In this document: piece after piece, positions 2,813-52,511 of the stretch
Position numbering within the stretch: position 1 is the stretch's first letter
Layout of the letters: the number at the start of each line of letters is the position of its first letter
Assembly (NCBI GenBank): GCA_942490685.1
Contig: CALNXW010000016.1
Span: 105,144 to 169,143, forward strand
From: an uncultured bacterium
GTDB lineage: Bacteria; Bacteroidota; Ignavibacteria; Kapaibacteriales; UBA2268
Direction: 5' to 3'
DNA length: 64,000 nt
Made by a program: the position numbers and the translations under genes
Notes under the pieces: generated by a model
The model's database searches: none
What the model was told of the DNA's origin: nothing
The model's input: the letters and a program-made list of their open reading frames with translations, nothing else

Positions 2813-4081
2813 ATGAAAAAATTACTTTCTTGCTGTGCTTTTGCGCTGCTTGCCATGATGAGTTATGGGCATAATGCTCTAGCTCAAAATATTGGTATAA
2901 ATGAGGATGGTGGTGCGCCACATCCTAGTGCTATGTTAGATGTTGAGTCTAATTCAAAAGGTATTTTAATACCGAGAATAGATTATAACAACAAACCGGC
3001 AAATCCTGCCACTGGCTTACTTATCTATGTTACTTCTAATGGACCTCTTGGTAATAATACTTTTTATTACTACAATGGAACTGATTGGTTAGTTTTTGAC
3101 CAGTGGGCTGTTTCCGGTTCAAATATCTATTACAATTCCGGAAGTGTCACAGTAGGTAACTCTGACGCAGTAGATCCTACAGTTGCCAAAATGAAAGTGC
3201 ACGGAGGTATTGCTTTTTCGGGTGCGAATCAATCCACTACTAAAGGATTGCTTTTTTATAATTCCACAGCAGGTGCTAATGGTTTTGGAGCATTCCAATA
3301 TATCAATCAACTGAATCAGGTGCAAACTATCGGCACTGGGACAGTTGAAACAAATGGTGCTCCCGGCATAGAAACAGATGATTACGTCAGAAATGATGAT
3401 TTGATTGTGCTTCAGAGCATGGCAGTAGGCAAAAATGCAGAACCTGACTACAATTTCCAATTTAATACTCTTGTTTTGCAAGACGAAATCATCAGACTTC
3501 TTTTCGATGACACAAGTAACGCCGGAAGTTTCCCTAATAATGACTGGATGATTGAAATAAACTCTGCTACTCCCGGCGGCAAAAACTACTTTGCAATAAA
3601 GGATGTAACTGCTACTAAATATCCTTTTATGATAGAAGCACCAGGTGTAGATCACGCCTTTTATATCAAAGGCGATAACATAGGTCTAGGCACTGATAAT
3701 CCGCTTAAACAACTTCATATAGTTAATGGAACTAATCCTACAATTAGATTTGAGCAGGACGAAACCAATGCCAATACACCTCAAACATGGGATGTTCAGG
3801 CAAATGACAATAAACTATCATTCGTAGATGTAACAAACTCAGGCACAGAGGCACTTGTAATTGAGCAGGGAGCTCCAAGTTCTTCTCTTTACGTGGATGG
3901 TAACGGTAATACAGGCTTTGGCACTGCTACACCCGCAAGAAGTGTTCACATTTCTACTGCAATGAAATTAGAACCTCAAAACTCAGCCCCTGCAAATCCA
4001 AGCAAAGGTGATTTATACTTTGATAATAACGATAATAAATTGAAATGTTTTGATGGAACACAATGGCAAAACTGCTGGTAG
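2813..4081 (+). CDS. Secreted tail-fibre-like beta-rich protein (GIGTxxP repeats), paralogue A
   Basis: Signal peptide; IGINEDGGAPHPSAMLDVESNSKGILIPR N-terminal motif; RLLFDDTS..FP.NDW and NIGLGTDNP/GFGTATP repeats; ends CFDGTQWQNCW. Confidence 0.7.
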   Translation: MKKLLSCCAFALLAMMSYGHNALAQNIGINEDGGAPHPSAMLDVESNSKGILIPRIDYNNKPANPATGLLIYVTSNGPLGNNTFYYYNGTDWLVFDQWAVSGSNIYYNSGSVTVGNSDAVDPTVAKMKVHGGIAFSGANQSTTKGLLFYNSTAGANGFGAFQYINQLNQVQTIGTGTVETNGAPGIETDDYVRNDDLIVLQSMAVGKNAEPDYNFQFNTLVLQDEIIRLLFDDTSNAGSFPNNDWMIEINSATPGGKNYFAIKDVTATKYPFMIEAPGVDHAFYIKGDNIGLGTDNPLKQLHIVNGTNPTIRFEQDETNANTPQTWDVQANDNKLSFVDVTNSGTEALVIEQGAPSSSLYVDGNGNTGFGTATPARSVHISTAMKLEPQNSAPANPSKGDLYFDNNDNKLKCFDGTQWQNCW

Positions 4082-33335: not shown

Positions 33336-33410
33336 GGGCGAGTAGCTCAGTTGGTCTAGAGCACCTGCCTTACAAGCAGGGGGTCGGGAGTTCGACTCTC
33401 TCCTCGCCCA
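33336..33410 (+). tRNA. tRNA-Val(TAC), copy 1
   Basis: GGGCGAG/CTCGCCC acceptor stem, CTTACAA anticodon loop. TATATTTG promoter motif at 33307-33314. Confidence 0.95.
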
Positions 33411-33462
33411 CACCTTTTGACAATCAAATAGCCGATTATTCTTCTGGAAAGAAAAATCAATC

Positions 33463-33537
33463 GGGCGAGTAGCTCAGTTGGTCTAGAGCACCTGCCTTAC
33501 AAGCAGGGGGTCGGGAGTTCGACTCTCTCCTCGCCCA
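33463..33537 (+). tRNA. tRNA-Val(TAC), copy 2
   Basis: Identical 75-nt sequence to copy 1. Confidence 0.95.
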
Positions 33538-33591
33538 CATCTTTTTTGACAATCGAATAGCCGGTTATTCTTCTGGAAAGAAAAATCAATC

Positions 33592-33666
33592 GGGCGAGTA
33601 GCTCAGTTGGTCTAGAGCACCTGCCTTACAAGCAGGGGGTCGGGAGTTCGACTCTCTCCTCGCCCA
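33592..33666 (+). tRNA. tRNA-Val(TAC), copy 3
   Basis: Identical 75-nt sequence to copy 1. Confidence 0.95.
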
Positions 33667-33682
33667 CTCAAAAAAGAAAATG

Positions 33683-45244: not shown

Positions 45245-46432
45245 TTAATATAAAAATCCAAACATCCATAGAGGTATTTTGTTCTCAAATCCAAATTCAA
45301 TGTCATCACTCACCACGAATGAGTTATCTATCTCTCGAATCTGGTGTTTTTGCTTATTTTTTCCACCAATTTCAAATGTATATTTATCTGCTACTAAAAA
45401 ATCTGATTTATTTGATGAGCAAATTTTGTACTTATGTTTTAATTGATTTAAAAAGAATGTTTCTCTAATATTCCCTATTTCAGGTTTATCGGCAGACAGG
45501 CTATAGCTCAAAGTAGAGTTATTCAAATATATTTTCTCCGGTTTACTTAGGCGTGTGATCCCTTTTTTATTGTCATATAGTGTATTAATTAGTTCAGCTC
45601 TTTCAAGTATATTTATCATCTTCAAAACAGTCTCTCTATTAGTCTTCATCTTTTCTGCGAGTTTTGTAATATTGGGCTTGAAAGGTACGCTCTCTGATAT
45701 AATTGCTAATAATTTTTTCGCTTTAAGAACTGTCTCATAGCTAAACTTTTCTATCAACTGGATATCATTTTCAATAATTATATTTATAATATTATCCAAT
45801 TTTATAGGAACCATTTCAGGTGACTCTATAAAAAACGGATACGCACCGTATCTCAAATAATTTTTGAAATGCTTGATTGGAAGAATCTTTTGATTGATAT
45901 CATGAGCTATTTTTATGTGCCTCTCCAATATTTGCTCCAATGAAAGTACCGGGAATTCAATATTCTCGCTTAACATCAGGTACTCTCGAAAAGACATCGT
46001 CGGCATGCGATATAATATCATCCTTCTACTTAAATCAGCGTTGCCCTTATAAATTTCAAGAATTGAAGAACCCGAAATAACCATTTTCAGTTCAGGGTAA
46101 AAGTCATATATGTTTTTCAACTCGGTTGACCAATTAGGATATTTATGAACTTCATCCAAATATAAATATTTCCCACCACGCATCACGAAATTATCTACTA
46201 AGTCACTTAGCTTATTTTCGGTAAAGTAAATATCGTCTAAAGTGAGATATATGCTTTCGTCAAGTGGCAACTTTGAAAGCATTTGAAGCATCATAGTAGT
46301 TTTACCACTACCTCTGCTTCCAAGAATGCAAATTAATCTAGAATCCTCATTTACTTCTTTAATGAGGGATCTTGCAAAACTGGTATTCAGTTGATTAAGT
46401 CGCCTAAGATATTTAGAATGTAATCTTTCCAT
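45245..46432 (-). CDS. AAA_14/DUF4143-type ATP-binding protein; start moved to ATG 46432
   Basis: Walker A GSRGSGKT, Walker B LYLDEVH, ISGSS, PEKIYL, ETFFLNQL, FEIGGK. A TATATTTG motif (46464-46457, minus strand) overlaps the longer predicted start. Confidence 0.88.
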   Translation of the reverse strand: MERLHSKYLRRLNQLNTSFARSLIKEVNEDSRLICILGSRGSGKTTMMLQMLSKLPLDESIYLTLDDIYFTENKLSDLVDNFVMRGGKYLYLDEVHKYPNWSTELKNIYDFYPELKMVISGSSILEIYKGNADLSRRMILYRMPTMSFREYLMLSENIEFPVLSLEQILERHIKIAHDINQKILPIKHFKNYLRYGAYPFFIESPEMVPIKLDNIINIIIENDIQLIEKFSYETVLKAKKLLAIISESVPFKPNITKLAEKMKTNRETVLKMINILERAELINTLYDNKKGITRLSKPEKIYLNNSTLSYSLSADKPEIGNIRETFFLNQLKHKYKICSSNKSDFLVADKYTFEIGGKNKQKHQIREIDNSFVVSDDIEFGFENKIPLWMFGFLY

Positions 46433-46465
46433 ATCAATATTGCATGTTATAAAGTACAAATATAA

Positions 46466-46500
46466 ATAAAAAACGTCCTTTTAGTAGGACGTTTTTTATA
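46466..46500 (-). terminator. Intrinsic terminator following the duplicated gene end
   Basis: AAAAAACGTCCT/AGGACGTTTTTT stem. Confidence 0.75.
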
Positions 46501-46526
46501 AAAGTAATATTGTTTAAGCAAATAAT

Positions 46527-46668
46527 CTACTCCACTTCAATCTCACCCAAATCAACAACGCCCTTATCAATTTTTATCTTAACAACATTCTCCTGCATTT
46601 TCTGGTTTGGTCTGCCGTAATTAGTATATATTTTGCAGCGAATCTGTGGATCAATACTAGATTTTTGT
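46527..46668 (-). repeat. Orphan duplicate of the last 46 codons and stop of the VIT/DUF2135 gene (attR-like)
   Basis: 142-bp direct repeat of 47613-47754 (offset 1086) with about 6 substitutions; frame preserved. Confidence 0.92.
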
Positions 46669-46699
46669 ATGCGGTGAAAAAAAGTTAGATATTGTATTC

Positions 46700-47356
46700 C
46701 TATAAATTGTTTTTTGAGTAGAAAGTTTCTATTTGAATAATTTTAGTCTCGGTTTTCACTAATTGAGATAAAAAGATATCTATATCATCAGCTAACCAAA
46801 GTAAAAGATTTTTTGAAATATTATTGATTTCTCTTACGTATTTTAGATTCCACACAATCGGCTCATAATGAAAAATTCTGTTCCTAAATTTTCTAATATG
46901 GTTTATAGGGCTACTGACTTTTCGTAATTGCCTGTTTTTTTTCTCTAAGTTAGGAAATGAAAGTCTCAAACTTTTCCATAGAGTAGCTGAGTATTTACTA
47001 TTAAAGAGTGCCGACCAAAATCCAAAAGATAGCTCTGCAACAATCTTATCTTTGTTCAATTTTTCATTCCTACTCAAGATTTTATTTTTAGCAATCATAA
47101 TTTCCTGTTTGAAATCAGGATGCTCTTCTGCGAACTTTTCAAACCATTCAGAGGAATTGTACTTTTTAGATAATTGTAAGTCGATCCGATTTCTCAGAAT
47201 AACTTCGATTAGTGCCAACAGCGGATAAAATGATTGAGACAATTCAATATTTTTTAGATATAATTCTACAGCTAATTCGTTGTCATAAAAGACTCTTTCT
47301 CTATATTTTCTAATTCTGCTTTTCGAAAATAAAATTTCAAAAGTTTCTTGTTGCAT
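46700..47356 (-). CDS. Abi-like (Abi_2/AbiF family) HEPN RNase
   Basis: FSKSRIRKY, LY.KNIELSQSFY..L..IEV.LRN, AELSFGFW, and HEPN motif RNRIFH followed by YEPI. Confidence 0.85.
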   Translation of the reverse strand: MQQETFEILFSKSRIRKYRERVFYDNELAVELYLKNIELSQSFYPLLALIEVILRNRIDLQLSKKYNSSEWFEKFAEEHPDFKQEIMIAKNKILSRNEKLNKDKIVAELSFGFWSALFNSKYSATLWKSLRLSFPNLEKKNRQLRKVSSPINHIRKFRNRIFHYEPIVWNLKYVREINNISKNLLLWLADDIDIFLSQLVKTETKIIQIETFYSKNNL

Positions 47357-47390
47357 ACTAATCCACTTTTTATTATATTATTCTTGCAGT

Positions 47391-47435
47391 CCCGGTAATT
47401 CCTCTCCCGTACTTAGTGACGGTGATGAATCCGGG
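47391..47435 (-). ncRNA. Candidate abiF-type structured RNA (antitoxin or leader hairpin)
   Basis: GC-rich hairpin in ~25% GC DNA, 34 nt upstream of the Abi ATG: CCCGG-ATTC-..-CCGT-cactaagt-ACGG-..-GAAT-ta-CCGGG. TAnnTTTG motifs upstream at 47495-47488 and 47555-47548. Confidence 0.6.
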
Positions 47436-47562
47436 TTTTTTTATTTATAGACAATTATAGATATCTCTTTACATTCCCGACAATATCCAAAAATATATTT
47501 TAATAATTCTGTTTTTTTACTCATTGTTGAACTTATTTGTGCTTTGTCAAAAGTACTGCGAA

Positions 47563-47596
47563 TAAAAAAAACGCCCTGCAAGCAGAACGTTTTGTT
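47563..47596 (-). terminator. Intrinsic terminator of the VIT/DUF2135 gene
   Basis: AACGTTCTGC/GCAGGGCGTT stem with G:U pairs plus T-tract. Confidence 0.65.
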
Positions 47597-47612
47597 TAAT
47601 AGTTAAATCTTG

Positions 47613-50600
47613 TTACTCCACTTCAATCTCACCCAAATCAACAATGCCCTTATCAATTTCTATCTTTACAACATTCTCCTGCATTTTCTGGTTTGGTTTG
47701 CCGTAATTAGTATATATTTTGCAGCGAATCTGTGGATCAATGCTAGATTTTTGTCTACTATTGCCATAAAAGTTGGCTTTTATTTTATATTTTCCAGGAA
47801 GTGCATCTTTTATCATGTATACTTCAGGACCGTAGCCTCTAGTCATATCTTCACTCAAAAATCCACCTCTTTTGGTATACCTTTTACCATAGTAGCATTT
47901 TGTACTATCCGGTTCTATTACCCAAAGATCAAGATCAGTTTCGTCCATCACCCAAGTGACCTCAATTCTTAAATCTACAGGAGATTTGAAAATATAATCC
48001 TGATTATAATTTGAGATATTGATTTTATCTTTATGCTTATCTAAGAGTGCATTGAATTCAGTAATCAGAGTAGTTCTAATACCTGAATATTCCCAAGCTA
48101 TATCTCTTGTAAATAGATTATAGAGCGAATCAGCAGCTGCCTGATATTCGCCAAGTTCAGCTAAGCATAAAGCATAATCTCTAAAACTTTGAGGCTCTTC
48201 AGCTCTGATTTTTAGAATATGTTTGTAAATACTTTTTGCAAAATCATATTCCTTATGTTCCATCATAAAACCTGCAACACGTCTAAGATTTTCATGATCT
48301 TCCAGATTTATTTCCGCCAAATTAGAAATAACTCTGCATGCTTCTTTTATTTTGCCGCTCTTCTCAAAAACCTTTGCAGCATCAAAAAAGAAAGAAGGAT
48401 TCATTTGATTGTTTTTTCTAAGCTCAAAATAAGTATCTTCTAGTTCTCCCAAAGCAGCTGAACTAAGTTCTTTGTAGTATTCTTTTGAGGATTGGTATTC
48501 TTCTGTAGCAACAACTGCATTTGCAAATGGTTCTTGAGTATCCGGAAAATACTTACTTCCGCCTATTCCCATCCCACCGGTAAACTTCTCACCAAAATTC
48601 AATCCATTAACTAGAATCTGATCATCTTCGTGACGTGAACCTCTGACACTAAAGCCAGCGCCACTATTAGTAACTCCTGCCTTCATTGATATCGCATCAA
48701 CAATGTTTTCATTTGCAACCATTTCTCTATTTGCTGTTACAAACAAAGGTAGTGTATTTAGAACTTTATCTATCATTTTGACTTCAATATATTTATCTTC
48801 TTTTGGATTTATATTAGTGAGTACTTTTTTTCTTTTTGCAACGTGACTAAATTCAAGATCGAAGCTATCCAGCAAATTGCTATTTAGCACAAACATACCG
48901 GAGGGTTTTGTTTTAGCTCCATGTTTTGTTCCTAGTATTCTGACGGTAACTCCCGGAAGAGGTTTGTTATTCGCATCCATAACCCTGCCTATCAGAATAC
49001 TTTCGGGTAAATCATAAATTGCGGAACAATTCATAATTTTATATTTTAAACTGTGCCCCTCTGCAAGATAATCATAGCTTGTATTTGGAATTCGAAATAC
49101 AATCATCTGATCAAAATGATTTTCTAAATCTTGGCAAGGTATAGTATATTTAATAAACTTACCATCATCAGATAGACTTAAAGGACCTTCTTTATCTATC
49201 TGCCAGGAGCTCACACTATCAATCAATGAAAACTTGACTTCAATGGAATCTACTTGTTCAATATCATTTTGTTCCAGTTCATCTTCGCTGATATAACAAA
49301 AGTTGCGACCACGATTATAATAAGTAGTGGATAATTCAGATTCCAAGTTTGAGGATATGCTATTATCATTAGAATACACTGTGATATCTCCAATTCTAAA
49401 TTTGCTTCTATCTATATGACTTAGACCAATCTTTAAAGATTTTCTGTTCTCATTATACCAATTACTATTGAGGTCACTAATTGAAACAAAAGTATAAAGT
49501 CCCATATCCGGTTTCTCTTTTTTCAGCATACTAACTACTTCTGAATATAATTCCTTATCTCGTCTTGATAAGAAAGATTGCGACAAGTTTTCCATATAAT
49601 TTTGATTATCAATTGCTATAGCAGAATTTTTGATAAAGTATATTTTTGATAAATCTAAAGAGCTACTATCATCAGCAATTTTGATTGCAATTTTACCATG
49701 AATTTCAGCTATTTGATCTTTATATTTGTCTCGTATTTTGTTCTTATTCTCTTGATATGGTAGAGAAGATACATAGTAGATACCGTCTAAGTTTATACTA
49801 TTCTTTTTGAAAATATTTGTTCCACTTAAATATCTAAAATGACTCTCACAGTAATAATCATTCCTAGGTCTGCGCAAATAATTTAGATAATTATTCAGCA
49901 TCTTAGAACTATCTAAATCTCCTTGAGATAGATCATAAAAATACTTTTCACGATACTTATTATTTCTATAAATACTATCATTCTTAGTATTTTGATATTC
50001 ATAATCCCACGACAAATCAGTATACTTGAAAAACATATTATTATATTCTGCATATCCAGGTAGTAAAGAATCTAAATCAATAGCTGTTACTAACTCTTCA
50101 TCAGGAGTAGTCGTTATTTGTTTATAGTGTGAAGCGACTAAACTACTTACTTCTTTTGTATATTGCTTCCACTTATCTACTAAATCAAGATTTTTTTCTG
50201 ATAAGAAATAAGCACCATCTTTTACCAGATATAATTTGCTATAGTATTCAATGAGGTCAGCTTGTCTGATTTCAATTTTTAAAATAGAATCTTTATAATA
50301 ATTGATTTCTTTTCGATATTTATATTTTCTATCCAAACCATATTTGTATTTGTAATAAGAATTTGCAACAAAAGAAAGATTCTCTAATTTCTCTCCTACA
50401 GGATCTCTCATTTCGAAGCTAGAAGTATGTCTAGATGTAAATCTTTGCAGCCCATAATTTCCATAATATCCATAATATCCATAATTCCTGACACTGAAAA
50501 TAGAATCGTTAATTAGTACTTCTCGTATAGGCAAGCTGCGATAGTATTCCGGATACTCTTCATTGTATTTACTTAGCACATTATAATGAATATTTTTATG

Positions 50601-52511
50601 CTGACTAAAATCAAAATCCGGCAATAATTCCTTTAAATCAATAACATAATAAGCTTTATCATCAGACATTACATCCATATTTTGTATTATTTTTCCCACT
50701 TTGGTATCAAGTATTCTATAACAAGAATCTAGATATTGCACTTCCTTAAAATCTAAACTATGCCATAATTTCAAATCTTTTATCTGTTGGAGTACAGTAT
50801 TCTTTAAGTTTTCAATTCGTCTAAGACTATCAGCTTCTAAATCCCTATTATACCTAGCATAATACTCTTCCATTGCTGTTGCCAAACTATCATACTCCTC
50901 TCTCATCTCCGCCGGCGGCTCAATCTTATAACCATAGTAATCCCATGCTGTTTCTAAAACAATCAGTGAAGTGAAGGCAGTTACTAAAGAGTATTTTTTG
51001 CCTAACACTGTGATTTCTTTTTCGTTTTGTGTTTGATTTAAATTCAAGTCTGCCAGCTTCTGTTTTGCCCAGATTTTATGAAGGATGCCCGAGTTTGTGC
51101 GATTGCTCTCAGTAATGTTAATTGGAATCGTTTTAGTTACTTGATTGCCGTAACCAAATTTTAGCTTTAGCTGCGAACTTGATTGCATCTTACCTGAGAT
51201 ATTGATATTTCCTTTTACTACTTCATTTTTTGGATAAACTTCACTAGCTGCGCCCTCTATACCTAAGAAATAAGGGAATGAGTATGTGAGTAGATTTAGG
51301 GCTTGATTAATGTCATCATTTGTTAGATTTATATACTCGCCTCCTGTTTTTCCAGCCATATTGCGGCATGCATCATGATCAGATATAGAAGAACTATTGA
51401 TGATATACATAGGTTTTTGAGACTCATCAAAGCTGCCTTCGCCAATATTATTTATACCGTCAGAGAAAATGAATATCTCATCGCCACGAAGCTTGCTTAG
51501 ATCAACTGAACTGTAATTTGTAGCACCGTCAATTCTGAGTCCGTTTATATTTGCTTCTATCTCATCAAAATCTGCATTTTCGAAATATATTGGTTTATCA
51601 GCATAAAGGCTGAATGGTACCAGTTCTACGTTACATTTGTTGTACTTTAAGTATGCTTCCAAAAGCTCTAAATCTTTTTTGATATCTGAATTTAAGCGAG
51701 AAGCAGATATATCCCAAAGTACACTAATCGTATTTGGTTTTGCCTTGGGTTTCAGCATCATGTCCGGATTAAGAGAGATGCGGAAGAAATCCTCATTATT
51801 GTACGTCTCAAGCTGAACGCTCTCTTCTCCAAAATGAGGAATAATAAACTCATAAAGTTCCTTTGCCTGATAATCAGTATACTCAGACATCAATGTATAA
51901 GCCCCATTAGCTTTTCCGAACTTTGAATTATCCGAGCTGTTGTTAATTGGCTCTGCAAAATCTGAGTAAATCGTAGCTCTGAAACTAAACGAATCCAGCT
52001 TGTTTGGCATATCCAGCGGCAAAGAGTATTTCAAGCCATCCGGTGTAAGCGTAAGTTCTTCTTCATAAGCAATTACAATATGCTTCTCCTTTTTAGAAAA
52101 TAGTGGATATACTCTAGAACGGAAGTTGTTTCCGCGAGTAACCTCGAGCAAGCCGGGATCAACACGACGGTTAACAATCTTTTCGTAAGTCACTCTCCCT
52201 TTTTCCTTTTCAACTATTACGCCCTCACGCAATTTCTCATTCACATCCATAGCAAAGCGGGATACCACCACACCTTCAGCTAAAGGAAAGTCAAGCTGAC
52301 CTTCCAGAGTTCTGTCATGCGGATTGTAGAAGTGTAAATCATAGGTTGTAATTGCGAGTGAACCAACAATTTTTACATCAACTTTTGCTTTTTTAATTGG
52401 CAAAGTAAAGTCCTTTTCCGCCTCAGTAACAGTAATAGAAGGCATGCCTGATTGTGAAAAAACAGGCACTGCCATCAGCATTATAACTATCAATATTTGT
52501 ATCGTTTTCAT
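47613..52511 (-). CDS. Giant secreted protein: VIT, vWA-like, TPR/DUF2135 C-terminus, carboxypeptidase-regulatory-like domain, and a ~570-aa Tyr/Lys-rich insert
   Basis: Signal peptide; LEGQLDFPL, VDPGLLE, VLWDISAS, FSDG, SLVTAFTSLIVLE; W..DETDLDLWVIEP, DMTRGYGPE, NFYG. Confidence 0.85.
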   Translation of the reverse strand: MKTIQILIVIMLMAVPVFSQSGMPSITVTEAEKDFTLPIKKAKVDVKIVGSLAITTYDLHFYNPHDRTLEGQLDFPLAEGVVVSRFAMDVNEKLREGVIVEKEKGRVTYEKIVNRRVDPGLLEVTRGNNFRSRVYPLFSKKEKHIVIAYEEELTLTPDGLKYSLPLDMPNKLDSFSFRATIYSDFAEPINNSSDNSKFGKANGAYTLMSEYTDYQAKELYEFIIPHFGEESVQLETYNNEDFFRISLNPDMMLKPKAKPNTISVLWDISASRLNSDIKKDLELLEAYLKYNKCNVELVPFSLYADKPIYFENADFDEIEANINGLRIDGATNYSSVDLSKLRGDEIFIFSDGINNIGEGSFDESQKPMYIINSSSISDHDACRNMAGKTGGEYINLTNDDINQALNLLTYSFPYFLGIEGAASEVYPKNEVVKGNINISGKMQSSSQLKLKFGYGNQVTKTIPINITESNRTNSGILHKIWAKQKLADLNLNQTQNEKEITVLGKKYSLVTAFTSLIVLETAWDYYGYKIEPPAEMREEYDSLATAMEEYYARYNRDLEADSLRRIENLKNTVLQQIKDLKLWHSLDFKEVQYLDSCYRILDTKVGKIIQNMDVMSDDKAYYVIDLKELLPDFDFSQHKNIHYNVLSKYNEEYPEYYRSLPIREVLINDSIFSVRNYGYYGYYGNYGLQRFTSRHTSSFEMRDPVGEKLENLSFVANSYYKYKYGLDRKYKYRKEINYYKDSILKIEIRQADLIEYYSKLYLVKDGAYFLSEKNLDLVDKWKQYTKEVSSLVASHYKQITTTPDEELVTAIDLDSLLPGYAEYNNMFFKYTDLSWDYEYQNTKNDSIYRNNKYREKYFYDLSQGDLDSSKMLNNYLNYLRRPRNDYYCESHFRYLSGTNIFKKNSINLDGIYYVSSLPYQENKNKIRDKYKDQIAEIHGKIAIKIADDSSSLDLSKIYFIKNSAIAIDNQNYMENLSQSFLSRRDKELYSEVVSMLKKEKPDMGLYTFVSISDLNSNWYNENRKSLKIGLSHIDRSKFRIGDITVYSNDNSISSNLESELSTTYYNRGRNFCYISEDELEQNDIEQVDSIEVKFSLIDSVSSWQIDKEGPLSLSDDGKFIKYTIPCQDLENHFDQMIVFRIPNTSYDYLAEGHSLKYKIMNCSAIYDLPESILIGRVMDANNKPLPGVTVRILGTKHGAKTKPSGMFVLNSNLLDSFDLEFSHVAKRKKVLTNINPKEDKYIEVKMIDKVLNTLPLFVTANREMVANENIVDAISMKAGVTNSGAGFSVRGSRHEDDQILVNGLNFGEKFTGGMGIGGSKYFPDTQEPFANAVVATEEYQSSKEYYKELSSAALGELEDTYFELRKNNQMNPSFFFDAAKVFEKSGKIKEACRVISNLAEINLEDHENLRRVAGFMMEHKEYDFAKSIYKHILKIRAEEPQSFRDYALCLAELGEYQAAADSLYNLFTRDIAWEYSGIRTTLITEFNALLDKHKDKINISNYNQDYIFKSPVDLRIEVTWVMDETDLDLWVIEPDSTKCYYGKRYTKRGGFLSEDMTRGYGPEVYMIKDALPGKYKIKANFYGNSRQKSSIDPQIRCKIYTNYGKPNQKMQENVVKIEIDKGIVDLGEIEVE

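What the first reader, a model, noticed from the sequence alone, without database searches (positions are those of the whole stretch)
46700..47500. AbiF-like HEPN nuclease with an upstream GC-rich hairpin: candidate RNA-antitoxin (type III-like) anti-phage module
Seen: a 218-aa Abi_2-like protein with intact RNRIFH, and a 45-nt hairpin closed by CCCGG/CCGGG with inner ATTC/GAAT and CCGT/ACGG stems, 34 nt before the ATG and downstream of a promoter motif. Established: AbiF-family HEPN proteins are abortive-infection RNases; a conserved upstream abiF RNA has been described as their antitoxin, and the family has been linked to Cas13 origins. Inference: a compact member of this toxin-ncRNA class in a poorly studied FCB lineage.
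Basis: partly seen in the sequence, partly recalled or inferred. Interest (0 to 1): 0.75.

Follow-up and report, generated by a model that had tools for sequence, protein, structure and literature searches.

The report
Abi toxin gene with partner small RNA
A small AbiF-like RNA-cutting toxin gene sits next to a conserved, previously uncatalogued ~60-nt structured RNA, probably its antitoxin and probably made from the opposite strand. This extends the RNA-antitoxin family thought to be ancestral to Cas13.

Summary
ORF 46700-47356 (-) encodes a 218-aa HEPN protein with an invariant RNRIFH motif. Its only solved structural relative is PbAbiF bound to its ncRNA (8VZ6, TM 0.64). The 45-nt hairpin (47391-47435) is not chance. 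A covariance model finds exactly one copy beside the homologue in 56 other loci and in five of seven plasmid loci tested, with 94% pairing and compensatory changes in 10 of 15 pairs.

Two parts of the interpretation fail. First, it is not the Rfam abiF motif: no match even in a 91-nt search, while the phiC2 positive control scores 37.6 bits. Second, the RNA is most likely not the ORF's leader. On the opposite strand the hairpin has a host-appropriate promoter at fixed spacing (TAnnTTTG in 39 of 42 Bacteroidota-type copies, sigma-70 boxes elsewhere) and a U-tract. In three loci the whole unit is flipped to lie co-directional with abi.

Best reading: a two-part toxin/RNA-antitoxin abortive-infection cassette of AbiF type, with a new RNA and a head-to-head architecture. 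This is a new variant of a known kind. The family is large and frequent on plasmids. No expression or toxicity data could be obtained. The cassette is flanked by a 141-nt duplication of the upstream gene's 3' end, and similar duplications recur in other loci.

The parts
46700..47356 (-). abi gene: 218-aa compact AbiF-like HEPN protein (putative RNase toxin). HEPN motif R158-N-R-I-F-H163.
   Evidence: ORF. Invariant RNRxxH, E51, R55/N56 and GFW112-114 in 28 homologues. AF2 model pLDDT 95. Only real PDB fold match is 8vz6_A PbAbiF, TMq 0.64. PADLOC PD-T4-5 E 1e-16. Pfam Abi_2 sub-threshold.
47384..47447 (+). Small RNA gene (new motif, model R1). 5' GCAG, hairpin 47391-47435 with conserved internal loops UUCCUCUC / GUGAUGAA, then U7 tract 47436-47442. 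The strand assignment is inferred.
   Evidence: cmsearch 80 bits, E 5e-21, the only hit in the window. Covariation. Fold. Promoter and U-tract statistics in homologues.
47351..47386 (+). Putative promoter of the small RNA. At the canonical position the window has TATATTAT (47372-47379; TAnnTT is kept, the last two bases differ). This also reads as TTGCAT (47351-47356), 17 nt, TATATT (47374-47379). A one-mismatch TATTCTTG box lies at 47379-47386. The region overlaps the abi start codon (47354-47356).
   Evidence: Read from the sequence. In homologues an exact TAnnTTTG ends 9-12 nt before the stem in 39 of 42 Bacteroidota-type copies, and sigma-70 -35/-10 boxes sit at that place in Proteobacteria and Chloroflexota. 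The window copy is one of three without an exact box.
47452..47495 (-). Candidate abi promoter elements upstream of the RNA's terminator side: exact TAnnTTTG (TATTTTTG, 47495-47488) and TATAATTG (47459-47452, also part of the sigma-70-like TTGTCG-18-TATAAT). An abi mRNA started here would carry the complement of the small RNA in its 5' UTR.
   Evidence: In 17 of 38 divergent Bacteroidota-type loci an exact TAnnTTTG lies within 90 nt on this side, mostly 2-21 nt from the motif. Function not shown.
47614..47754 (-). Right copy of the 141-nt direct repeat: the last 46 codons of the 1632-aa VIT/DUF2135 gene (47613..52511), in frame with that gene.
   Evidence: the repeat finder family D1, 96% identity, spacing 1086. 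Translation. DUF2135 match at residues 1570-1615.
46528..46668 (-). Left copy of the direct repeat: an orphan fragment of the same gene's 3' end, 31 nt after the abi stop. Frame and stop codon are kept (TAA to TAG).
   Evidence: Changes are 2 synonymous and 3 conservative. No ORF continues into it.
47568..47593 (-). Intrinsic terminator after the VIT gene, inside the 1086-bp repeat unit.
   Evidence: Terminator scan. Fold.
46466..46499 (-). Intrinsic terminator after the orphan repeat copy. It is probably the original terminator of the VIT gene and now also ends the abi transcript.
   Evidence: Terminator scan, 14-bp stem plus T-run. Inverted repeat I11.

Best explanation
This is a self-contained, roughly 0.9-kb two-part toxin-antitoxin / abortive-infection cassette. 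The toxin is a compact (218 aa) AbiF-like HEPN ribonuclease. Its partner is a structured small RNA of about 55-65 nt belonging to a new motif class. The motif has a GC-rich basal stem, conserved internal loops UUCCUCUC / GUGAUGAA, a covarying inner stem and a variable apical loop.

The RNA is made as its own transcription unit. Its promoter overlaps the abi start codon, and transcription runs away from abi on the opposite strand, ending at the hairpin's own U-tract. By analogy with PbAbiF-AbiFr and AbiFCd-RCd22, the RNA most likely binds the Abi dimer and blocks its HEPN site (type III-like). Toxin would be released when phage infection stops supply of the RNA or displaces it.

In the common head-to-head layout the abi mRNA must be transcribed through the RNA gene. 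Promoter collision and antisense pairing could then additionally keep toxin expression below antitoxin expression.

Shown: the protein fold and motif, conservation and covariation of the RNA, its one-to-one linkage with the gene, and the promoter and terminator signals. Inferred: which strand is expressed, RNA-protein binding, toxicity and anti-phage function.
For: Protein:
- Rx4H and other residues are invariant.
- AF2 model pLDDT 95.3.
- The only meaningful PDB fold hit is 8vz6_A 'PbAbiF dimer bound to ncRNA', TMq 0.64, probability 1.0.
- Weak but specific sequence links: phiC2 AbiF, BLASTP E 3e-4; Abi_2 in 21 of 28 members; PD-T4-5, E 1e-16.

RNA:
- 57 hits of 39-84 bits, one per locus, always next to abi, and none elsewhere in the window.
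- 93.7% paired, 10 of 15 pairs with compensatory change, 88 such cells, 0 of 500 shuffles as high; slid controls 28-50% paired.
- RNAalifold independently recovers 14 of the 15 pairs.
- Internal-loop bases are invariant across Bacteroidota, Beta- and Gammaproteobacteria and Chloroflexota, while stems covary and the apical loop varies from 4 to 14 nt. That pattern fits recognition by a protein.

Strand and independent unit:
- An exact TAnnTTTG ends 9-12 nt before the stem in 39 of 42 Bacteroidota-type copies (31 at exactly 9 nt).
- At least 6 T in the 8 nt after the stem in 42 of 42.
- Non-Bacteroidota copies have -35/-10 boxes at the same place.
- In L010, L012 and L020 the whole promoter-hairpin-U-tract unit is co-directional with abi and 0-38 nt from its ATG. 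That is the classical type III layout, and it rules out antisense pairing in those loci.

Literature: AbiF proteins are type III toxins neutralised by an upstream ncRNA (PMC12373285; PMC12737573; PMC13064643).
Against: - No expression data.
- The G-U versus A-C count does not discriminate the strands (16 vs 15). Strand assignment therefore rests on promoter and terminator signals and on the flipped loci.
- The window's own RNA promoter lacks an exact TAnnTTTG.
- No sequence-level match to PbAbiF, and fold-search E-value only 0.32.
- The head-to-head overlap in 54 of 57 loci is the layout of type I (antisense) systems, not type III.
- The RNA is a single copy, not a processed tandem array.
- Toxicity, RNase activity and defence are all untested.
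Confidence: 0.55

Rival explanations
1. Type I-like antisense control only. The small RNA is a cis-antisense regulator, as SymR is for symE. It represses abi by pairing with the complementary 5' UTR of the abi mRNA and by transcriptional interference, without binding the protein.
For: In 54 of 57 loci the RNA gene lies head-to-head with abi. Its promoter overlaps the abi start codon, and candidate abi promoters lie beyond its terminator, so the two transcripts must overlap.
Against: - Three loci have the unit co-directional with abi, where no complementarity exists.
- Internal-loop sequence is invariant across phyla, although cis-antisense pairs need no fixed sequence.
- The apical loop, which in antisense RNAs usually carries the conserved kissing motif, varies in length and sequence.
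- The closest structural relative binds its RNA directly (PMC12737573).
Confidence: 0.2
2. The functional RNA is the sense-strand hairpin in the abi 5' leader, acting as a cis-regulator or processed into an antitoxin from the abi transcript.
For: The hairpin folds equally well on the abi strand (-17.3 kcal/mol). The G-U/A-C test is neutral. Many loci have a promoter box upstream on that strand, so the complement is probably transcribed as part of the abi mRNA. PbAbiF is reported to process its own ncRNA (PMC12737573).
Against: - On the abi strand the hairpin is preceded by a conserved A-run that has no role there, and promoter spacing is variable.
- On the other strand promoter spacing is fixed and a U-tract follows.
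- In L010, L012 and L020 the abi-strand transcript would contain the opposite sequence.
Confidence: 0.12
3. The hairpin is only a transcription terminator or insulator that shields abi from neighbouring transcription. There is no dedicated RNA function.
For: GC-rich stem followed by a T-run on the + strand. Its best Rfam near-match is the terminator part of rseX.
Against: A terminator does not need invariant internal-loop sequences, a dedicated promoter 9 nt upstream, or one-to-one linkage with one protein family across four phyla. The CCUAG-type proteobacterial copies lack a good U-tract and carry a separate terminator hairpin downstream.
Confidence: 0.03

Closest known systems
AbiF / AbiFr type III toxin-antitoxin (PbAbiF, PDB 8VZ6; C. 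difficile AbiFCd-RCd22 with the Rfam abiF motif RF03085)
   Same: - HEPN Rx4H protein of the Abi_2 superfamily with the same fold (TMq 0.64 to 8vz6_A).
- A dedicated small hairpin RNA with a GC-rich basal stem and conserved unpaired bases is encoded immediately upstream.
- Both RNAs contain a CCUCUC stretch.
- Solitary or mobile-element context.
   Different: - The protein is about 80 aa shorter (218 vs 287-300 aa) and is not detectable by sequence against 8VZ6. By contrast, phiC2 AbiF hits 8VZ6 at E 8e-30.
- The RNA is a different motif. RF03085 does not match it, and model R1 found no copy at the abiF region of the phiC2 locus (L081; only an unrelated weak hit).
- The RNA is a single copy, usually on the opposite strand with its own promoter and terminator, not a co-directional leader with an attenuating terminator.
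ToxIN / AbiQ / TenpIN type III systems
   Same: An RNA antitoxin gene with a terminator next to an endoRNase toxin gene. The three co-directional loci (L010, L012, L020) have the promoter-RNA-terminator-toxin order.
   Different: The toxin fold is unrelated (ToxN/AbiQ are not HEPN proteins). Those antitoxins are tandem 34-36-nt repeats cut by the toxin. Here repeat finder shows no second copy of the hairpin in the region, and there is one RNA copy per locus.
SymE/SymR and other type I cis-antisense toxin-antitoxin pairs (from my own knowledge)
   Same: A small RNA is transcribed opposite to the 5' end of the toxin mRNA from a promoter close to the toxin start codon.
   Different: The toxin is a 218-aa HEPN protein. 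The RNA has a conserved, covarying structure with invariant loops, and it is retained when flipped to the non-complementary orientation.
PD-T4-5 (E. coli plasmid-borne anti-T4 abortive-infection gene, Vassallo et al. 2022, PMC9519451)
   Same: Best PADLOC match (E 1e-16). It is described as a distant AbiF/D relative that gives abortive-infection defence, is TA-like, and has no known antitoxin.
   Different: The PD-T4-5 profile is 309 positions long. The E. coli and Acinetobacter plasmid homologues I tested (25-30% identity) have no R1 RNA, even with filters off.
Cas13 (type VI CRISPR effectors)
   Same: HEPN RNase working with a hairpin RNA. AbiF is the proposed ancestor (PMC12737573).
   Different: One HEPN domain per chain, no CRISPR array, and no evidence of guide function.

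Membership tests
Pfam Abi_2 (PF07751) / AbiD-AbiF superfamily | Match to the Abi_2 profile at or above the gathering score | tested here: not met
   20.8 bits against a cut-off of 25.6, E 5e-4. 21 of 28 family members match at E<=0.01, best 4.6e-8. This is a peripheral clade of the superfamily.
Pfam Abi_2 (PF07751) / AbiD-AbiF superfamily | HEPN catalytic motif Rx4-6H | tested here: met
   R158-NRIF-H163, invariant in 28 homologues. This aligns in principle with R210/H215 of PbAbiF (PMC12373285).
Pfam Abi_2 (PF07751) / AbiD-AbiF superfamily | AbiF fold | tested here: met
   AF2 model pLDDT 95.3. Top and only credible PDB hit is 8vz6_A, TMq 0.64, probability 1.00, 15% identity. The next hits have TM <0.32.
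AbiF-abiF RNA system (Rfam RF03085) | abiF RNA motif upstream of the gene | tested here: not met
   No RF03085 hit in 46000-48200 or 47370-47460 at E<=10. None at the gathering score in 60 homologue loci. Positive control: phiC2 gives 37.6 and 19.5 bits.
Type III toxin-antitoxin | Antitoxin is a non-coding RNA genetically linked to the toxin gene | tested here: met
   One conserved, covarying RNA motif per locus, adjacent to abi, in 57 of 81 loci plus 5 of 7 plasmid loci tested. Its antitoxin activity was not tested.
Type III toxin-antitoxin | RNA is co-directional and upstream of the toxin, separated from it by a terminator | tested here: not met
   The window and 53 other loci are divergent. 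Only L010, L012 and L020 have this order.
Type III toxin-antitoxin | RNA binds and inhibits the toxin protein; the toxin is an endoRNase | not testable with these tools
   Inferred from the fold match to the PbAbiF-ncRNA complex and from invariant unpaired bases.
Type III toxin-antitoxin | Antitoxin consists of tandem repeats processed by the toxin | tested here: not met
   Single copy in the window and in every locus.
Type I toxin-antitoxin (cis-antisense) | RNA complementary to the toxin mRNA | tested here: inconclusive
   Geometry allows it in 54 of 57 loci if abi is transcribed from the boxes found upstream. It is impossible in the three flipped loci. No transcript ends are known.
Anti-phage defence system (PADLOC PD-T4-5) | Profile match to an experimentally validated defence protein | tested here: met
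   PDLC04038, E 9.8e-17, residues 9-170. The defence phenotype of this gene was not tested.

The most novel reading that the evidence does not exclude
The module is a hybrid toxin-antitoxin system in which one small RNA acts at two levels. It binds and silences the AbiF-like RNase (type III). Because the two promoters fire into each other, it also blocks abi expression by antisense pairing and promoter collision (type I). The roughly 0.9-kb cassette is itself mobile and lands at the 3' ends of host genes, duplicating 30-260 nt of the target. A more speculative extension is that the hypervariable apical loop gives the RNA a sensing or target-selecting role, which would be a step towards a Cas13-like guide.
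Probability: 0.2. Interest if true: 0.8.

Novelty: new variant of a known kind. Interest (0 to 1): 0.66.

Why it matters
AbiF with its ncRNA was shown only in 2025 to be a type III toxin-antitoxin system and the likely ancestor of Cas13.

This analysis finds a second, large clade of compact AbiF-like proteins: about 7,400 50%-identity clusters for the wider family, many on plasmids of plant, fish and human-associated bacteria. A large part of the sampled loci (57 of 81) pair the protein with a different structured RNA that no Rfam family matches (release 15), and in a different gene layout.

If confirmed, this would:
- add a new RNA family;
- supply a candidate missing antitoxin for many genes annotated simply as 'Abi family protein';
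- show that the protein-RNA partnership in this lineage is older and more plastic than the single abiF motif suggests;
- give an experimentally easy case, in cultured Pseudomonas, Aeromonas and Xanthomonas plasmids, for asking how RNA recognition diversified before Cas13.

Tried and rejected
- **Rfam abiF membership: rejected.**, with the positive control.
- **Sequence search of the PDB** with the protein and with the family profile found nothing at E<=1. Only the fold search linked it to PbAbiF.
- **NCBIfam:** no family for the protein.
- **G-U versus A-C counting to assign the strand:** inconclusive, 16 vs 15.
- **Exact-protein lookup of the window protein:** not on record. Organism identity was therefore not established. 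TAnnTTTG boxes are enriched upstream of window genes (10 sense vs 3 antisense), which fits Bacteroidota-type promoters.
- **Link to E. coli PD-T4-5 through DNA:** blastn of the P. syringae module against all complete E. coli genomes found nothing. The E. coli and Acinetobacter plasmid homologues lack the RNA.
- **Defence-island context:** not supported for two close homologues, which sit alone among housekeeping genes. In the window the only defence-like neighbour is an AAA_14/DUF4143 ATPase.
- **Integron-like attC or a common recombination core at the repeat ends:** none seen by eye.
- **The 46-aa ORF 47441-47581 (-)** upstream of abi was considered as a protein antitoxin. It was dismissed because it has a TTG start, overlaps the terminator region, and the upstream sequence differs among homologue loci. 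Its conservation was not tested directly.
Full report
**1. What is in the sequence**

The ORF at 46700..47356 (- strand) encodes 218 aa. It ends 34 nt from the ATG.

The hairpin folds about equally well on either strand. The - strand gives -17.3 kcal/mol (z -2.8) and the + strand gives -16.7 kcal/mol (z -2.0). Read on the + strand it is followed by T7. Read on the - strand it is preceded by A7.

A sigma-70-like match lies upstream on the - strand. By itself, though, a single hairpin of this energy would not be remarkable.

**2. The protein**

Pfam Abi_2 matches only below threshold: 20.8 bits against a cut-off of 25.6. NCBIfam has nothing. PADLOC's PD-T4-5 profile matches at E 1e-16.

Fifty-nine homologues were found by word-seeded search. 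The closest are only 41-43% identical. In an alignment of 28 of them, R158, N159, R160 and H163 (the RNRxxH motif) are invariant. So are Y33, E51, N56, W71 and G112-F113-W114. Twenty-one of the 28 hit Abi_2.

A profile search of 1.84 billion cluster representatives gives 7,439 clusters at E<=1e-3 and 1,802 at E<=1e-30. This is a large family.

The AlphaFold2 model is confident (pLDDT 95.3, all-helical). Its only credible match among solved structures is 8vz6_A, 'PbAbiF dimer bound to ncRNA' (TMq 0.64, probability 1.0, 15% identity). Every other hit has TM below 0.32.

By sequence the family profile does not find 8VZ6. The canonical phiC2 AbiF does, at E 8e-30. phiC2 AbiF aligns to the window protein at only 26% identity, E 3e-4.

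Conclusion: this is a compact, peripheral clade of the AbiD/F HEPN superfamily.

**3. The RNA is real and is not the abiF motif**

Rfam release 15 gives no abiF (RF03085) hit in 46000-48200, or in the 91 nt around the hairpin, at E<=10. It gives none at the gathering score (Rfam's curated family cut-off) in 60 homologue loci. As a positive control, the same search finds two abiF motifs upstream of phiC2 AbiF (37.6 and 19.5 bits). This is as published for the C. difficile system (PMC12373285).

A scan of one genome per species returned 80 loci encoding relatives. Folding and pattern scans of their upstream regions showed the same hairpin again and again. In abi-sense orientation it reads AAAAAA-CCCGG-aTTCATCA-[4-bp stem, 4-14-nt loop]-GAGAGGAA-nnA-CCGGG-ACTGC.

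- On a MAFFT alignment of 54 distinct copies, 92% of cells pair and 10 of 15 pairs show compensatory changes.
- A covariance model (R1) finds 57 hits of 39-84 bits. There is exactly one per locus, always next to the abi homologue, and one in the whole window (47384-47447, 80 bits).
- On the model-based alignment, 93.7% of cells pair and 88 cells carry double changes. None of 500 shuffles reaches the observed values, and sliding the partners drops pairing to 28-50%. The alignment is fitted to the model, so it leans towards the structure.
- The inner stem uses AU, GC, UA and CG at one position. The outer stem switches between CCCGG, CCCAG, CCUGG, GCCAG, GCUGG, CCUAG and CCCCGG, each with a matching partner.
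- RNAalifold independently predicts 14 of the 15 pairs.
- The unpaired or weakly paired bases (UUCCUCUC on one side, GUGAUGAA on the other) are invariant or nearly so across Bacteroidota, Beta- and Gammaproteobacteria and a Chloroflexota MAG. The apical loop is free to vary.

**4. Which strand**

The count of G-U pairs against A-C mismatches is neutral (16 vs 15). The flanks are not.

Read on the strand opposite abi (the + strand of the window):

- 39 of 42 Bacteroidota-type copies have an exact Bacteroidetes -7 box, TAnnTTTG, ending 9-12 nt before the stem (31 at exactly 9 nt).
- All 42 have at least 6 T in the 8 nt after the stem.
- In the proteobacterial and Chloroflexota copies the same position carries ordinary -35/-10 boxes, for example TTGCAT...TATGAT, TTGATC...TATACT and TTGACA...TATAGT.

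A promoter whose type changes with the host while its position stays fixed, followed by a hairpin and a U-tract, is the signature of an independent small-RNA gene. Its start is near the conserved GCAG.

The abi start codon lies between the -33 and -7 elements of this promoter.

On the abi strand, 17 of 38 divergent Bacteroidota-type loci have a TAnnTTTG just beyond the RNA's terminator. The abi mRNA therefore probably reads through the RNA gene and carries its complement.

In three loci (L010, L012, L020) the whole promoter-hairpin-U-tract unit is flipped. It then lies co-directional with abi, 0-38 nt before its ATG. L012 even keeps a 9-codon vestige of an abi 5' end attached to the RNA promoter. 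A function that survives this flip cannot depend on being the abi leader or on antisense complementarity.

The window's own promoter is less canonical. At the standard position it reads TATATTAT (47372-47379). This is also TTGCAT-17-TATATT. A one-mismatch TATTCTTG lies 4 nt from the stem.

No expression data could be obtained.

**5. Mechanism**

The literature establishes that AbiF proteins are HEPN RNase toxins held inactive by a small upstream ncRNA. That RNA binds each monomer, and its unpaired bases block the active site (PMC12737573; PMC12373285; PMC13064643).

Four observations point to the same principle here, with a different RNA:

- the fold match;
- the invariant catalytic motif;
- the strict one-to-one linkage of RNA and gene;
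- the pattern of invariant unpaired bases, covarying stems and a free apical loop.

That the RNA binds and inhibits the protein is inference.

The head-to-head layout adds a likely second layer of control through promoter collision and antisense pairing, as in type I pairs such as SymR/SymE (from my own knowledge).

**6. Distribution and context**

- tblastn finds relatives in 496 plasmid records, where they are annotated 'Abi family protein' or 'hypothetical protein'.
- The R1 RNA is present, divergent, upstream of the homologues on five plasmids: P. syringae pv. maculicola ES4326 pPma4326B, P. aeruginosa pF051, a Bacteroides finegoldii plasmid, A. salmonicida A449 plasmid 4 and X. phaseoli pD.
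- It is absent, even with filters off, from more distant E. coli and A. baumannii plasmid homologues and from about 20 distant chromosomal loci. Those loci also lack RF03085 and may have RNAs of their own.
- Two close homologues sit alone among housekeeping genes.
- PD-T4-5, the best PADLOC match, is a plasmid-borne distant AbiF/D relative that gives abortive-infection defence against T4 (PMC9519451).

**7. The cassette is an insertion**

A 141-nt direct repeat (96% identical; 46528-46668 and 47614-47754; spacing 1086) brackets the module.

The right copy is the last 46 codons of the 1632-aa VIT/DUF2135 gene. The left copy is an orphan fragment 31 nt after the abi stop. It keeps the frame and a stop codon, with 2 synonymous and 3 conservative changes. 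Each copy is followed by a different terminator.

Comparable repeats flank the module elsewhere:

| Locus | Repeat |
|---|---|
| L007 | 119 nt, again the 3' end of the upstream gene including its stop |
| L002 | 130 nt |
| L009 | 98 nt |
| L004 | 60 nt |
| L058 | 31 nt |
| L050 | 199 nt |
| L017 | 257 nt |
| L055 (R1-negative) | 125 nt |
| L074 (R1-negative) | 91 nt, in several copies |

I see no shared core at the repeat ends. There are two candidate origins. One is integration of a [gene-end + cassette] fragment from a related genome, homologous on one side and illegitimate on the other. The other is single-crossover integration of a circle carrying one repeat. Neither is shown.

**8. Verdict**

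Two specifics are wrong: identity with the abiF RNA is ruled out, and the leader hairpin on the ORF strand is probably the wrong strand.

The system is a new variant of a known kind. It has a new RNA motif and a new architecture, in a large and partly plasmid-borne clade. Function remains to be tested.

Noticed in passing
window 46528-46668 and 47614-47754: A 141-nt direct repeat (96% identical) brackets the abi module. One copy is the functional 3' end of the 1632-aa VIT/DUF2135 gene. The other is an orphan copy that keeps the frame and a stop codon. The cassette (1086-bp unit) is therefore an insertion that duplicated the end of the host gene.
   Followed up: partly
L007 2794-2912 / 3645-3763; L002 2720-2848 / 3674-3803 (third copy 896-1032); L009 2792-2888 / 3688-3784; L004; L017; L050; L055; L058; L074 (five copies): Direct repeats of 31-257 nt (75-98% identical) flank the abi module in about ten other loci. 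In L007 the repeat is again the 3' end of the upstream gene, stop codon included. In L002, L010 and L074 the repeat recurs at about 0.6-1.9-kb spacing, like a cassette array. No common core sequence was seen and the mechanism is unexplained.
   Followed up: partly
L010 113-176, L012 2937-3000, L020 2893-2956: In three Bacteroidales MAG loci the small-RNA unit (promoter, hairpin, U-tract) is inverted relative to all others and lies directly in front of the abi ATG. L012 keeps a 9-codon vestige of an abi 5' end on the far side and a duplicated promoter segment further upstream.
   Followed up: partly
L014, L018, L030, L086, L089, L090 (CCUAG-type copies): Beta- and gammaproteobacterial copies with a CCUAG/CUAGG basal stem have a 2-nt longer junction and a poor U-tract. 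They are followed about 25 nt later by a separate GC-rich terminator hairpin, so the RNA is probably longer there.
   Followed up: no
Rfam abiF consensus compared with the R1 consensus: Both RNAs have a CCCG-rich basal stem, a short second stem and then CCUCUC. The two models do not detect each other's RNAs. This could be distant common ancestry or convergence on a protein-binding element.
   Followed up: no
window 45245-46459 (-): The gene next to the cassette encodes an AAA_14 / DUF4143 ATPase. It matches PADLOC candidate system PDC-S01 (E 2e-27). A 44%-identical homologue lies 1.8 kb downstream of the abi gene in L029.
   Followed up: partly
window 33336-33667 (+): Three tandem tRNA-Val(TAC) genes with equal scores, spaced 127-129 nt apart.
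   Followed up: no
window 47613-52511 (-): A 1632-aa protein combining VIT, CarboxypepD_reg, TPR and a C-terminal DUF2135. The abi cassette is inserted at its 3' end.
   Followed up: no
L087 (Bacteroides finegoldii plasmid NZ_OY725904.1, 2480-3089): The abi homologue matches in two pieces and is annotated as a 148-aa hypothetical protein, so it is probably disrupted. The R1 RNA upstream (2396-2461) still scores 51.8 bits but has mismatches in the basal stem.
   Followed up: no
L055 172-295 and 1180-1303: An R1-negative Prevotella homologue is flanked by 125-nt repeats. Each ends in a Bacteroidetes-type promoter (TAnnTTTG followed by CAGCG) resembling the R1 promoter region. This may be a different RNA partner in that clade.
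   Followed up: no
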